Origin: Malacoraja senta
Taxonomy: Eukaryota
Direction of reading: 5' to 3'
Length of the DNA stretch: 64,000 nucleotides
Assembly (NCBI GenBank): GCA_038087875.1
Contig: CM075978.1
Coordinates: 162,254,001 to 162,318,000 of the forward strand
In this document: one piece after another, positions 51,001 through 54,000 of the stretch
How positions within the stretch are numbered: the first letter of the stretch is position 1
Layout of the letters: each line of letters opens with the position of its first letter
Program-made: the position numbers

Positions 51001-54000
51001 TCTGATGATGCTGGCTACCTTTTTGAGGCAGCGACTCCGGTAAACACCTTCGATGGTGGGGAGGTCAGAACCCGTGATGGACTGGGCATTGTTCACAACT
51101 GTTTGCGAACAACAATCCTGCTCTATAGTTCTCACTTTCAATATTTTTGGCAACAAGTCTTTGACATTGTCATTTCCCTAGCTGGGTACTTTGAAACATG
51201 ACGACCATCTGCGGAATTGTTCTACCACTCGATCAATGTAGCCGATGTGTGAGCTCTGCTGAATAATATCCAGCAATAGCTGGTCCGAAAATTTGATTCA
51301 AATATCGCAATATTTGCTGCCGGAAGATGTTTGAATTACAACAGGTGGAAAGCAGCACAAACACAAGCAGTGTCGTGGTGGATTTTTATATAAGAATTTT
51401 CTCCATCTACACAGTGGCAGTCTGATTTGTGAGAGGACAGAATCATTATTGTTGTGTAGATACTGAAGAACCAAGCCAGCTGCATAGTACAACATGCAAT
51501 GCACCTTACCATGCATACCAACCCCACATCAAGGCAAACTAATCATTCTGGTCTTCCACACTATGTTATTTTGCACCAGAGGTTCAACTGAGTGGTCACT
51601 GAGCTCTCTATGCTGGTCGTTGTTGTGTGAGCCTCAGTTATAAAAGTCTTGAATTAATCAGATGTGAAGGCAACACAGTTCAGTCCAATGTTGTAGCCAT
51701 TTGACATTATTGGACCTGGGAAGAGATCATCAGAAGACAATCAGGGGGAGTAGCACCACTTGAGTTTCCTCATGGTAAACAAAGGCTTTGGACTAAGCTG
51801 CTGTCCTCCTGCCAGTGTGCTAACCAAGATGACCTATCCCATCACTGAACAAGTCTCAGCCTGTGAGCTTCTTAGCCTGAGCAGTTCAGACACTCACAGA
51901 GACACTCAGCAGATGCTCAAGGGAGTCAAAACCAGGTCAAAAACTTGGAGCACAAACTCTAGAACTCTTTGGATATGCATGTGCTGTTGATCAAAAGCAA
52001 AGTTACAGTTTGACTTCTCAAAAAAAGTCACTAGCCCATCAGCTCATGACTTAAAGGACAAGGAACGGTAGGTAGGGCACAAACTGTTAAGGGAAAAAAA
52101 TTACAGGCATATAGAGCATCGCCTCTCATACTGTTGTGCTCAAGAACCCCACACATACCTGCCTAATATATGAATTTATCAATCTTAATTTCCACTGCAG
52201 GACAGGTATCCTTCTGCCCCTGGAAAATAACCCCAAATAGATCTGTGTCAAGTGGGGGAGGGGGAATGACATCTCACTACTCGCTGTCATGTGAGCAGTA
52301 AGGAAAGAACAGCCATGCTGTGCGAAAGGAAATCAATAGCAATGCACTGTGGTACTTATACAGTTTGTGGGTCAATAAAAGAAGGTTGAAGTTCCTTTAA
52401 TTCGATTCTCAGCAAAGTGTCCCCTTTGCCAATCGTTAAAGTTTAGTGAATAACACTTGCACAGCACAATCTACAGGTCCATATTGCCATCTCCGTTGCC
52501 AATATTCAGCAAAATCTTCGCAGTTAGTTGCCACTTTCACAAGAGATAGTTTTGCAACTATCTCACCTCCCCCCCCACCCCATAAAACACGCAGAACAAT
52601 ATTAGAAAACATCCTTTTACAAGACGGCCGAGGCTCCGTGAAGGCAGAAGCCAGCTGTGGACCTGCTGGTATCACTAGCTTTGTCAAATTTGAAGAAATG
52701 GAAGCTTCTTTAATCAATCAAGCTAAAAAATTACATCGGCAGGCAAATTGGTCTCATTTCTTCACAAATTGAAAGGTACACGTCTCAAGGTGGAGGGTCA
52801 CCATGTTCAGCTGTTATTCCTTTCCAAAGTTCTCCCTGACTTTTATTCAGCAGAGGTTGTGCTGCTTATCTTCCAGTCCATTGATGGTTAAAGTCAAGAA
52901 GTTTTTCAAGGTCAACAACAAATTAATGTATTGATTGCATATTAAAGTGTCATGTGATTAATATCCCTTTAGAAGTAATTAGTGTTACAGATCTCTGATA
53001 TTGCTACACTTTAAATAATGCATCTCTGAACACAGGCACCGTGTCAATCTTATTAAGTGAGACTACATGTCATATCACATGAAAACTAATTTGGAAACTG
53101 GGCAAGCTGCCTGCTGAATTTCTAAAAAAAATTGCATTCCAAATTAGCTATAGAGACATCTTTACTCTGCGGAGTTAAACACAGAACTTGTACAACAGTC
53201 TGCAGCAAATTGAGGCCTGATCCAGAGAGATAAGTTAAAAAAAGAGACACAAAAAGCTGGAGTAACTCAGCGGGACAGGCAGCATCTCTGGAGAGAAGGA
53301 ATGGGTGACGTTTCAGGTCGAGACCCTTCTTTTGTCTGAAGACGTCACCCATTCCTTCTCTCCAGAGATGCTGCCTGTCCCGCTGAGTTACTCCAGCTTT
53401 TGGTGTCTATCTTCGGTTTAAACCAGCATCTACAGTTCTTTCTTACACAGATAAGTAAAAAGATTGTCTTTCTTCTTCATATTTACCTTGCTAATAATAC
53501 TCTCTGCAGTGGACTCATAATGGGAGAAGGGGTAGAGCGCTTAAAGAATTGGATAGCCCTAGTAAACAGGCCAATGCATCATTTCCATAAAGTAACATCC
53601 AGCTTATGCAGTCCACTTTGACCTAGAAATTAAATTGTGTGACGTTTATTACCATGCTGTGCAACCGAAAATGTCTTTCACAGTGTTAAATACGCTTACG
53701 GCCATTTTGTGTGGTTTCAAACAAGAAATTAGACCAGGCATTTCAATATTAGATATGCATCATGTTACATCATTCCAATGTGCATCACTCTTATGGAAAA
53801 TCTGATCATGTTATATCAAGAGAGACCATAGACCACTTCCAAGATCACTTATCTTCACAATGCAGCACAACGCATTCTAAAGCAGGTCTCATTCTTAGCT
53901 ATTCACCTTTGGTCTCTTTTCTGCCTCTCTCTGTCAACTGAAGCCCTCCTTGATCTCCTCACCAGTCTAAGCCGCAACCATCCCAGCATTTCCCACCCTC

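What the first reader, a model, noticed from the sequence alone, without database searches (positions are those of the whole stretch)
53252..53401. Perfect 60-bp hairpin from a fold-back Penelope end
Seen: 53252-53311 and 53342-53401 are exact reverse complements with a 30-nt loop holding a hammerhead remnant. Similar fold-backs occur at 1083, 6835, 34249, 45803 and 47398, each with a different central junction at or near the ribozyme motif. Inference: inversions arise repeatedly and independently near the ribozyme (self-priming or template switching), giving MITE-like palindromes from a retroelement. They could be Dicer/Drosha or ADAR substrates, or DNA cruciforms.
Basis: partly seen in the sequence, partly recalled or inferred. 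Interest (0 to 1): 0.65.

Follow-up and report, generated by a model that had tools for sequence, protein, structure and literature searches.

The report
Head-to-head Penelope retroelement insertion hairpin
The perfect 60-bp hairpin is real, but it is two short, truncated copies of a Penelope-type jumping gene inserted head to head in a single event in a skate- or ray-like genome, which is a published habit of these elements rather than a new kind of feature.

Summary
53252-53311 and 53342-53401 are exact reverse complements around a 30-nt loop, and the five other fold-backs exist.

The repeat is the 3'-terminal module (about 100-130 nt) of a Penelope-like element (PLE). In the longer copy at 29450-29932 the module follows the last ~40 codons of an ORF. 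That ORF's relatives in sharks, skates and rays carry reverse-transcriptase and GIY-YIG matches. The module starts with a minimal hammerhead-like motif.

All 6 adjacent pairs are head to head. No tail-to-tail or tandem pairs occur, and 0 of 20000 random placements give 6. Junction positions differ between fold-backs. Direct repeats of 9-14 nt flank three whole fold-backs (FB1, FB3, FB6). A terminal extension of about 29-38 nt ("tail") sits on only one arm in 5 of 5 clear cases.

These features match the published PLE insertion signature: an inverted 5'-truncated copy, a one-sided tail and a target-site duplication.

The junctions lie near the ribozyme motif because single copies also end there. 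None lies at the predicted cleavage site. Simple snap-back self-priming fits only 1 of 5 fold-backs. Reverse transcription primed on both target strands fits better.

Processing of the hairpin by Dicer or ADAR was not tested. Novelty is low.

The parts
53246..53331 (-). FB6 left arm: a 5'-truncated copy of the PLE 3' module with its sense on the minus strand and no tail. Its inner end lies inside the hammerhead-like motif.
   Evidence: blastn to the long copy: 53239-53331 = ref 454->362.
53332..53444 (+). FB6 right arm: a copy of the same module with its sense on the plus strand. It carries the terminal tail (about 53408-53444) and lacks about 16-17 nt around helix II.
   Evidence: 53332-53442 = ref 372->482.
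53252..53311 (.). Left half of the perfect 60-bp inverted repeat.
   Evidence: 60 of 60 complementary.
53342..53401 (.). Right half of the perfect 60-bp inverted repeat.
53312..53341 (-). The 30-nt loop. It is the left arm's remnant of the hammerhead-like motif (helix II and the start of the GAAAC box), followed by the junction.
53228..53240 (.). Left copy of the target-site duplication flanking the whole of FB6 (13 nt with 1 mismatch; by eye up to about 15-18 nt with homopolymer indels).
   Evidence: 1 of 400 and 19 of 1000 random position pairs reach its score.
53449..53461 (.). Right copy of the FB6 target-site duplication.
1082..1282 (.). FB1: head-to-head pair (left arm 1082-1193 with tail; right arm 1195-1282 without).
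   Evidence: A 9-nt exact direct repeat sits at 1070-1078 / 1286-1294 (88 of 1000 random pairs reach its score).
6836..7043 (.). FB2: old, decayed head-to-head pair. The cores at 6875-6920 (+) and 6968-7014 (-) come from nhmmer; the outer limits were set by eye.
34252..34409 (.). FB3: asymmetric head-to-head pair. The left arm (34252-34315) has the tail but is cut 61 nt into the module. The right arm (34319-34409) is complete at its 5' end and has no tail.
   Evidence: A 14-nt direct repeat with 1 mismatch sits at 34235-34248 / 34408-34421 (8 of 1000 random pairs reach its score).
45807..46003 (.). FB4: old head-to-head pair (left arm 45807-45911 with tail; right arm 45919-46003 without).
47401..47628 (.). 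FB5: young head-to-head pair (left arm 47401-47529, complete with tail; right arm 47532-47628, nested within it).
   Evidence: (97-nt arms, 92%).
29450..29932 (+). Longer 5'-truncated copy that fixes the sense strand and the family. It holds the last ~40 codons of the endonuclease ORF (29485-29613), about 190 nt of 3' UTR, the hammerhead-like motif (from about 29808), then the module and tail.
   Evidence: A 15-nt target-site duplication with 1 mismatch sits at 29435-29449 / 29933-29947 (0 of 400 random pairs reach its score).
10234..10482 (+). Second longer 5'-truncated copy (about 250 nt), without tail.
7969..8235 (+). Decayed piece of the PLE endonuclease region and 3' UTR.

Best explanation
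**What it is.** The hairpin is one insertion of a Penelope-like retroelement (PLE). It consists of two severely 5'-truncated copies of the element's 3'-terminal module, joined head to head. Their 5' ends, which carry the minimal hammerhead-like motif, meet in the middle. Their 3' ends, where reverse transcription starts, face outward. A duplication of the AT-rich target flanks the whole structure.

**How it probably formed (inferred).** The element's endonuclease nicks both target strands about 9-15 bp apart. Each 3'-OH primes reverse transcription of a template RNA, one from an internal start site (no tail) and one from the distal start site (with tail). The two cDNAs grow towards each other and usually stop at the 5' edge of the hammerhead-like region, as single copies do. 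They are then joined by an end-to-end template jump or by repair, leaving a few filler bases or a small deletion. This gives each fold-back its own junction.

**What it does.** The hairpin is a by-product of integration, not a selected device. If transcribed, the young copies (FB6, FB5) would fold into double-stranded RNA of 50-60 bp.

**Shown here:** the anatomy, the orientation bias, the flanking duplications, the one-sided tail, the link to the family, and the independence of the six events.

**Inferred:** priming on both strands and the mode of joining.
For: **Family.**
- nhmmer finds 24 copies at E<0.01 in 64 kb: 12 arms in 6 pairs plus 12 single copies.
- In the copy at 29450-29932 the module lies on the same strand as an ORF end and downstream of it. 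That ORF end matches shark, skate and ray proteins at E 1e-13 to 2e-15.
- 10 of 16 aligned relatives match Pfam GIY-YIG at E<=0.01.
- The relative P0019 has RVT_1 N-terminal to GIY-YIG. Its nearest ESM Atlas clusters carry RVT_1 + HTH_animal + GIY-YIG (score 0.96, TM 0.65).

**Motif.** The family consensus reads CTGAAGA, one unpaired A, a 4-bp helix II, GAAAC and GTC with no helix III. This fits the min-HHR that PMC4209133 describes for PLEs. A relaxed pattern gives 3 matches against 0.13 expected.

**Orientation.** There are 6 head-to-head pairs and 0 of the three other arrangements. 0 of 20000 random placements reach 6.

**Single event.** Direct repeats flank whole fold-backs:
- FB3: 14 nt (8 of 1000 random pairs reach its score)
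- FB6: 13 nt (19 of 1000)
- FB1: 9 nt (88 of 1000)

**Tail.** Exactly one arm reaches the tail end in 5 of 5 clear fold-backs. Among single copies with a preserved 3' end, 4 of 11 have a tail. Under independence, 5 of 5 would then have a probability of about 0.02 (my arithmetic).

**Independent events.** Inner ends differ between fold-backs. Identity to the consensus ranges from 70% to 97%.

**Literature.**
- PMC8557442 (passages) and PMC3846280 (passages) describe the inverted 5'-truncated copy, the one-sided 30-40 bp tail, 8-10 bp duplications and palindromes at the junction.
- PMC11167929 (main text) shows that a lizard PLE protein cleaves and extends both target strands. Reverse transcription starts at two internal sites whose spacing equals the tail, the protein prefers AT-rich targets, and it uses RNA not cut by the ribozyme.
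Against: - The window holds no reverse-transcriptase remnant and no full-length copy. Of 342 ORFs of >=55 aa scanned, none gave a PLE domain.
- The GIY-YIG and RVT_1 matches of the relatives are below Pfam's curated cut-offs. A fold-level check could not be run.
- No Rfam hammerhead model matches, at gathering score or at E<=10.
- No copy in the window keeps a fully intact core (0 matches to the strict pattern). Helix I is only about 2 bp by eye.
- FB5 is equally compatible with snap-back synthesis.
- No convincing duplication was found for FB2 or FB4. The one for FB5 is degenerate (12 of 15 by eye).
- Central deletions after insertion could have reshaped the junctions.
- The passages I read about the in vitro work do not show a head-to-head product.
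- All statistics rest on 6 fold-backs in one 64-kb window.
Confidence: 0.8

Rival explanations
1. Snap-back self-priming. A single cDNA folds back at its 3' end and copies itself, so the second arm is templated by the first.
For: FB5's right arm (ref 362-458) is nested within its left arm (ref 355-483). The hammerhead-like region holds short palindromes (ACGT, the helix II stem) that could seed a fold-back. PMC3846280 infers self-priming from palindromes at inverted junctions.
Against: In FB3, FB4 and FB6 the tail-bearing arm is the one that is shorter at the inner end. Each arm therefore holds family sequence the other lacks: 62/38, 12/35 and 10/28 nt. FB1 shows the same pattern marginally (3 nt). 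A copy-back arm cannot contain what its template lacks. Single copies without a tail (6 of 11) show that tail-less ends arise without any fold-back.
Confidence: 0.12
2. The fold-backs formed after insertion. Either two separate insertions landed one beside the other (self-targeting), or DNA repair or replication made an inverted duplication of a single copy, followed by central deletions.
For: PMC11167929 notes that the PLE protein can nick within its own terminal repeat. Long palindromes are known to suffer central deletions (recalled, not from a call). This could explain the 16-17-nt gap in the right arm of FB6.
Against: One direct repeat brackets the whole structure in FB3, FB6 and FB1. Only one of four possible orientations occurs, 6 times against 0 for the others. 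The one-sided tail would not follow from duplicating one arm.
Confidence: 0.04
3. A true MITE or Foldback-type DNA transposon that moves as a palindromic unit.
For: Inverted arms, short length and flanking direct repeats.
Against: 12 of 18 loci are single arms. The junctions and the outer ends differ between loci. The direct repeats vary from 9 to 15 nt. The arms continue into a retroelement ORF in the longer copies.
Confidence: 0.01
4. The hairpin is a functional small-RNA precursor (microRNA or hairpin siRNA locus) or an editing substrate, kept for that role.
For: Stems of 53-62 uninterrupted base pairs in FB5 and FB6. Rfam microRNA precursor models align at E down to 3e-13.
Against: All those Rfam scores are far below gathering (for example 63.8 against 100). 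They hit both strands and many unrelated microRNA families, so they reflect hairpin shape only. Older fold-backs have decayed like neutral DNA. No expression data could be consulted.
Confidence: 0.03

Closest known systems
Head-to-head inverted pseudo-LTR structures of Penelope-like elements, for example Pen2a_Av of Adineta vaga (PMC3846280) and the general scheme in Craig et al. 2021 (PMC8557442)
   Same: An inverted 5'-truncated copy abuts a direct one, 5' ends together. A 30-40 bp tail sits on one outer end only. A target-site duplication surrounds the whole unit. Small palindromes or overlaps occur at the junction. Targets are AT-rich.
   Different: Here nothing lies between or beyond the two arms: there is no ORF and no second direct repeat. 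The unit is only about 200 bp. The duplications are somewhat longer (9-15 bp against the 8-10 bp reported).
Poseidon element of Anolis carolinensis (PAc) studied in vitro (PMC11167929)
   Same: The layout is a hammerhead motif followed within about 60-120 nt by the reverse-transcription start sites. Two start sites have a spacing equal to the tail. Both target strands are cleaved and extended. RNA not cut by the ribozyme serves as template.
   Different: In PAc the ORF starts in helix II. Here no ORF starts in the module (by eye). The start region is not AC-rich on the sense strand. The passages I read do not report head-to-head products.
Minimal hammerhead motifs (min-HHR) of metazoan PLEs (Cervera and de la Pena 2014, PMC4209133)
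   Same: CUGANGA and GAAA boxes, an unpaired base before helix II, a G-C pair closing helix II, no helix III, and a palindromic 15.2-16.2 step (ACGU), which implies action as a dimer. Most copies are dispersed single motifs. That paper also notes paired motifs on opposite strands 100-700 bp apart in Schistosoma.
   Different: Helix II is 4 bp here (7-8 bp in the Schistosoma families). Helix I is barely present. All copies in the window are mutated, mostly at CpG sites.
Twin-priming inversions of LINE-1 (recalled from general knowledge; not from a call)
   Same: Two cDNAs are primed from the two strands of one target and joined internally, with a target-site duplication around the product.
   Different: As I recall them, LINE-1 inversions join different, non-overlapping parts of one RNA and give no palindrome. 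Here both arms copy the same segment.
MITEs and Foldback elements (recalled definitions)
   Same: Short, non-coding, with inverted arms able to form hairpins.
   Different: The arms are retroelement ends, half-units are commoner than pairs, and the junctions and termini are not fixed.

Membership tests
Penelope-like element (PLE) | A single ORF with a reverse transcriptase followed by a C-terminal GIY-YIG endonuclease | tested here: met
   The window holds only the ORF's last ~40 codons (29485-29613) and a decayed endonuclease piece (7969-8204). The feature is met through relatives. 10 of 16 match GIY-YIG at E<=0.01 (best 7.6e-5, below the 22.6-bit cut-off). P0019 has RVT_1 at residues 1-120 (E 0.0077) and GIY-YIG at 354-386. 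Its ESM Atlas neighbours carry RVT_1 + HTH_animal + GIY-YIG. No fold-level check was possible, and PDB sequence searches found nothing.
Penelope-like element (PLE) | Pseudo-LTRs formed by partial tandem copies around a full-length ORF | not testable with these tools
   There is no full-length copy in the window, and no eukaryotic genome collection was available. Among copies <=50 nt apart there are 0 direct pairs.
Penelope-like element (PLE) | An inverted 5'-truncated copy adjacent, head to head | tested here: met
   6 of 18 loci are head-to-head pairs, and 0 show other arrangements.
Penelope-like element (PLE) | An optional 30-40 bp tail on one end of the insertion only | tested here: met
   The outer ends fall in two classes, ref 444-458 and ref 481-483, about 29-38 nt apart. 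Exactly one arm reaches the tail end in 5 of 5 clear fold-backs. FB2 shows the same by eye.
Penelope-like element (PLE) | 5' truncation, variable target-site duplication and AT-rich targets | tested here: met
   Copy lengths range from about 100 to 483 nt. Duplications are 15 nt (29450 copy), 14 nt (FB3), 13 nt (FB6) and 9 nt (FB1), with controls. By my count the FB3, FB6 and 29450-copy repeats are about 70-85% A+T and the FB1 repeat 56%, against 59% for the window.
Hammerhead ribozyme, minimal PLE type | Conserved core boxes CUGANGA ... GAAA ... UH in order, flanking a helix II with a closing G-C pair | tested here: met
   Met in the family consensus (read by eye). In individual copies there are 0 strict matches and 3 matches to a CpG-tolerant pattern against 0.13 expected.
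Hammerhead ribozyme, minimal PLE type | No helix III, with a palindromic 15.2-16.2 step that allows dimers | tested here: met
   GAAAC is followed directly by GTC, giving ACGT. This is the feature described in PMC4209133.
Hammerhead ribozyme, minimal PLE type | A helix I of about 4-6 bp | tested here: inconclusive
   Only about 2 adjacent pairs can be drawn by eye from the consensus and from the longer copies.
Hammerhead ribozyme, minimal PLE type | A match to curated hammerhead covariance models, and self-cleavage | tested here: not met
   No Rfam hammerhead family matches at gathering or at E<=10 on three copies. Those models may require a helix III (inference). Cleavage cannot be tested here. 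I therefore call it a hammerhead-like motif.
MITE / Foldback DNA transposon | Unit copies with fixed terminal inverted repeats, one shared internal structure, and a duplication of fixed length | tested here: not met
   12 of 18 loci are single arms. Inner ends range from s-1 to s61 and outer ends fall in two classes. Duplications range from 9 to 15 nt.
Retrozyme (non-autonomous element with hammerheads in direct repeats) | Two hammerheads in direct orientation bounding a short unit | tested here: not met
   0 direct pairs within 50 nt. The one direct pair about 790 nt apart (9569-9630 and 10234-10482) consists of two separately truncated copies.
microRNA precursor families (Rfam) | A score at or above the family's gathering threshold | tested here: not met
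   The best is MIR831 at 63.8 bits against 100. There are 28 sub-threshold hits on both strands and none at gathering.

The most novel reading that the evidence does not exclude
The head-to-head geometry may be imposed by the ribozyme motif itself. The minimal hammerhead can only form as a dimer through its ACGU palindrome. Two template RNAs held by a dimeric PLE protein would then pair antiparallel at their 5' ends. The cDNAs primed on the two target strands would converge exactly on the ribozyme region. The two subunits would use different start sites, giving the tail on one arm only, usually the more truncated one (3 of 5 clearly, a fourth by 3 nt). The hammerhead would then act as an RNA dimerisation and integration-geometry element rather than, or as well as, a self-cleaver. 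As a side effect, each such event would seed a perfect hairpin that can feed small-RNA pathways.
Probability: 0.08. Interest if true: 0.6.

Novelty: already known. Interest (0 to 1): 0.2.

Why it matters
This is a clean, datable example of the characteristic PLE insertion signature in a cartilaginous-fish genome. In this window the family supplies every close inverted repeat found (4 of 4).

It has practical uses:
- Such fold-backs confuse assemblers and repeat annotators.
- They mimic microRNA precursors in structure-based scans.
- They may form double-stranded RNA when they lie in transcripts.

Mechanistically, two observations bear on the unsettled question of how PLEs integrate: the one-sided tail, and arms that each hold sequence the other lacks. 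Both favour priming on both strands over snap-back synthesis. With six cases this is a pointer, not a result.

Tried and rejected
**tRNA-derived SINE.** The helix II region resembles a B box by eye. I rejected this reading because ARAGORN finds no tRNA-like gene (0 in the window) and the ORF-bearing copy fixes the opposite strand as sense.

**A longer shared element beyond the module.** Flank-to-flank blastn of all copies found no consistent extension. Only three copies run further upstream.

**Ribozyme cleavage as the source of the junction.** No inner end of an arm or single copy lies at the predicted cut, between ref 386 and 387.

**The two arms of a fold-back as each other's closest relatives.** This was uninformative, because the young copies are all 93-98% alike.

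**Gene context.** 342 ORFs of >=55 aa were scanned with Pfam (67 + 125 + 150). Only two pieces matching ALKBH8_N passed the curated cut-off. No host gene was recognised, so I cannot say whether FB6 lies in a transcript.

**PDB sequence searches with a relative and with the profile.** Nothing significant was found.

**Structure prediction of the relative P0019.** The tool accepted no jobs on two tries, so the reverse-transcriptase and GIY-YIG folds remain unconfirmed at the structural level.

**Literature on PLE-derived hairpin microRNAs.** One search returned 13 papers, 10 listed. From the listing alone, none addressed the question.

**Genome-wide census.** This was not possible.
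Full report
**1. The observation**

- 53252-53311 and 53342-53401 are exact reverse complements, 60 of 60. They are separated by 30 nt.
- The repeat finder extends the arms to 72 nt at 96%.
- As RNA, the 234-nt region folds at -150.1 kcal/mol against -59.8 +/- 4.8 for 200 shuffles (z -18.9). As DNA it folds at -91 against -21.7 (z -23.2).
- The window has no N.
- A scan of the whole window for close inverted repeats (>=40 nt, <=400 nt apart) returns 4 pairs. All 4 belong to the same repeat family.

**2. The repeat family**

- blastn with one arm finds 18 matches in the window.
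- A profile built from 13 aligned copies finds 27 matches at E<=1 and 24 at E<0.01.
- Those 24 form 18 loci: six adjacent pairs and twelve single copies.
- The common unit is about 100-130 nt. Flank comparisons show no consistent longer element.
- Three copies run further upstream.
- The most informative copy is 29450-29932 on the plus strand. Its first part translates into the end of an ORF, followed by about 190 nt, then the module. A 15-nt target-site duplication with one mismatch flanks it. 0 of 400 random position pairs score as well.

**3. Which family**

- The 44-residue ORF end finds 6 longer proteins, all from skates where a name is given.
- A second search, seeded with one of them, finds 14 proteins from rays, sharks and unnamed eukaryotic gene models.
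- tblastn places these relatives at 29485-29652 (E down to 2e-15) and, decayed, at 7969-8204.
- 10 of 16 aligned relatives match Pfam GIY-YIG at E<=0.01. All are below the curated cut-off.
- The 486-residue shark protein P0019 has a weak RVT_1 match N-terminal to the GIY-YIG match.
- Its nearest ESM Atlas clusters carry RVT_1, HTH_animal and GIY-YIG (score 0.96, TM 0.65).
- A reverse transcriptase followed by a GIY-YIG endonuclease in one ORF is the stated definition of canonical PLEs (PMC11167929, main text).
- The window itself holds no reverse-transcriptase remnant. Of 342 ORFs of >=55 aa scanned, none gave a PLE domain.
- The PDB sequence searches were empty.
- The family assignment is therefore well supported but rests on relatives and on sub-threshold domain matches.
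- The window is elasmobranch DNA, not human.

**4. The ribozyme motif**

- The motif lies on the ORF's strand. The consensus of the module begins with CTGAAGA, one unpaired A, a 4-bp helix with a 4-nt loop, then GAAAC followed directly by GTC.
- This fits the text description of the minimal hammerhead of metazoan PLEs (PMC4209133, parts 1-2 of 4 read):
  - no helix III
  - a palindromic 15.2-16.2 step
  - an extra base before helix II
  - a G-C pair closing helix II
- Against full membership:
  - No Rfam hammerhead model matches, at gathering or at E<=10.
  - Helix I is only about 2 bp by eye.
  - No copy in the window has an intact core (0 strict matches).
  - A CpG-tolerant pattern gives 3 matches against 0.13 expected.
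- In FB6 the loop keeps helix II and part of the GAAAC box, but the first box is altered. 'Remnant' is the correct word.

**5. The fold-backs**

Coordinates are given on the long copy. Position s is counted so that C3 of the hammerhead numbering is s3. The predicted cut lies between s30 and s31, and s = ref - 356.

| Fold-back | Left arm | Left arm, ref | Right arm | Right arm, ref |
|---|---|---|---|---|
| FB1 | 1082-1193 | 483->368 | 1195-1282 | 365->453 |
| FB3 | 34252-34315 | 483->417 | 34319-34409 | 355->445 |
| FB4 | 45807-45911 | 481->374 | 45919-46003 | 362->446 |
| FB5 | 47401-47529 | 483->355 | 47532-47628 | 362->458 |
| FB6 | 53239-53331 | 454->362 | 53332-53442 | 372->482 |

- FB2 (about 6836-7043) is too decayed for this alignment, but nhmmer detects it.
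- All six are head to head. Among copies <=50 nt apart there are 6 pairs of that kind and 0 of each of the three other kinds. 0 of 20000 random placements reach 6.
- 9 of 10 inner ends lie between s-1 and s18. The tenth, the left arm of FB3, is at s61. None lies at the predicted cut.
- Single copies end in the same place. By nhmmer, 8 of 11 short ones stop at profile positions 128-130, one at 127 and two at 119. By blastn, they stop at ref 345-374.
- The junction is therefore 'near the ribozyme' because that is where cDNAs of this family usually stop, with or without a partner.
- This agrees with the in vitro finding that RNA not cut by the ribozyme is the dominant template, and that the region needed for insertion lies 3' of the hammerhead (PMC11167929).

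**6. Single events, made repeatedly**

Direct repeats bracket whole fold-backs (with 1000 random position pairs as control):

| Fold-back | Direct repeat | Random pairs reaching its score |
|---|---|---|
| FB3 | 14 nt, 1 mismatch | 8 of 1000 |
| FB6 | 13 nt, 1 mismatch; longer by eye with homopolymer indels | 19 of 1000 |
| FB1 | 9 nt, exact | 88 of 1000 |

- FB5 has a degenerate repeat, 12 of 15 by eye.
- FB2 and FB4 have none I would trust.
- By my count the FB3 and FB6 repeats are about 71-85% A+T and the FB1 repeat 56%. The window is 59% A+T.
- Identity of the arms to the family consensus ranges from 70-79% (FB4) through 79-90% (FB1) to 92-97% (FB5, FB6).
- The fold-backs are therefore of very different ages, with different junctions and different flanks. 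One palindromic master copy is excluded.

**7. The tail**

- The outer ends fall in two classes, ref 444-458 and ref 481-483. The classes are about 29-38 nt apart.
- In 5 of 5 clear fold-backs exactly one arm reaches the distal end. FB2 looks the same by eye.
- Among the 11 single copies with a preserved 3' end, 4 have the tail, 1 has a shortened one and 6 have none.
- If the arms chose independently, 'exactly one' would have probability about 0.46-0.50 per fold-back. Five of five would then be about 0.02-0.03 (my arithmetic).
- This matches what Craig et al. 2021 (passages) and Arkhipova et al. 2013 (passages) describe: a 30-40 bp tail on only one end of the insertion.
- It also matches the spacing between the two start sites mapped in vitro.

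**8. Mechanism**

It predicts that one arm is a subset of the other.
- That holds for FB5 only.
- In FB3, FB4 and FB6 the tail-bearing arm is the shorter one at the inner end. Each arm therefore holds family sequence the other lacks: 62/38, 12/35 and 10/28 nt. FB1 shows the same pattern marginally.
- The better fit is two cDNAs primed on the two nicked target strands, converging and then joined.
- In vitro, a lizard PLE protein cleaves and extends both strands and is predicted to be a dimer.
- The few unaligned bases between the arms (0-7 nt) fit end-to-end template jumps, or repair. So does the 16-17-nt gap over helix II in the right arm of FB6 (by eye). I cannot tell these from deletions that occurred after insertion.
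- This step is inference.

**9. Consequences**

- FB5 and FB6 would give double-stranded RNA stems of 53 and 62 uninterrupted pairs if transcribed.
- Rfam microRNA models align to FB6 on both strands, but all are far below gathering. That shows shape, not kinship.
- No host gene was recognised around FB6, so transcription is unknown.
- Older fold-backs have decayed, and FB2 and FB3 no longer fold significantly. This is as expected for neutral DNA.

**10. Verdict**

- It is wrong to tie that origin to ribozyme cutting, and it is probably wrong about simple self-priming.
- The phenomenon is already described for PLEs, so novelty is low.
- The one-sided tail and the non-nested arms are modest but useful pointers on an open mechanistic question.
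- Not checked:
  - any genome-wide census (no suitable collection was open)
  - expression or small-RNA data
  - supplementary files of the papers
  - protein folds

Noticed in passing
54617-54903 (+) and 55460-55750 (-): A second, unrelated inverted repeat. Its arms are about 290 nt and 88% alike (an inner 167 nt is 96% alike), 556 nt apart. Each arm encodes a piece matching Pfam ALKBH8_N (E 7e-10 and 4e-8), which I take, from recall, for the C-terminal part of a LINE-type ORF. The two ORF pieces face each other (tail to tail). The spacer holds a single PLE module at 55046-55159 with a possible 8-nt duplication.
   Followed up: partly
9569-9630 (+): A fragment of the element covers its 3' UTR and the hammerhead-like motif, and ends 3 nt after the predicted cleavage site. 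Unrelated sequence follows. This could be chance or a deletion. It is the only copy whose end lies near the cut.
   Followed up: partly
Tail region of the module, e.g. 53408-53444; short forms at 50054-50090 and 47615-47631: By eye, the tail contains two similar 10-mers about 19 nt apart. One single copy (50054-50172) seems to have a tail lacking the stretch between them. For FB5's right arm, the apparent short tail is better read as the degenerate target duplication.
   Followed up: partly
FB3, FB4, FB6 (and FB1 marginally): The arm that carries the tail is the one more truncated at its inner (5') end, in 3 of 5 fold-backs clearly and in a fourth by 3 nt. FB5 is the reverse. The sample is too small to interpret.
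   Followed up: no
19970-20086 (+) with 20082-20194: A reverse-transcriptase piece of another retroelement (matching residues 49-87 of P0004, E 7e-9) is interrupted by a single PLE module. The skate gene model P0004 looks like a similar chimera of a LINE-type reverse-transcriptase piece and a PLE endonuclease piece.
   Followed up: partly
28690-28975 and at least 10 other places (e.g. 27854-28031, 32007-32138, 56514-56684): Another abundant interspersed repeat of about 290 nt. blastn gives 15 further matches at 71-90% identity. It was not classified.
   Followed up: no
20651-20683 (-): An isolated 33-nt match (91%) to the tail alone, about 460 nt from the single copy at 20082-20194.
   Followed up: no
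53832-54560 (+): The longest open frame of the window (242 codons, stop to stop) lies about 400 nt right of FB6. It has no Pfam match and a low-complexity look. It is probably not coding.
   Followed up: partly
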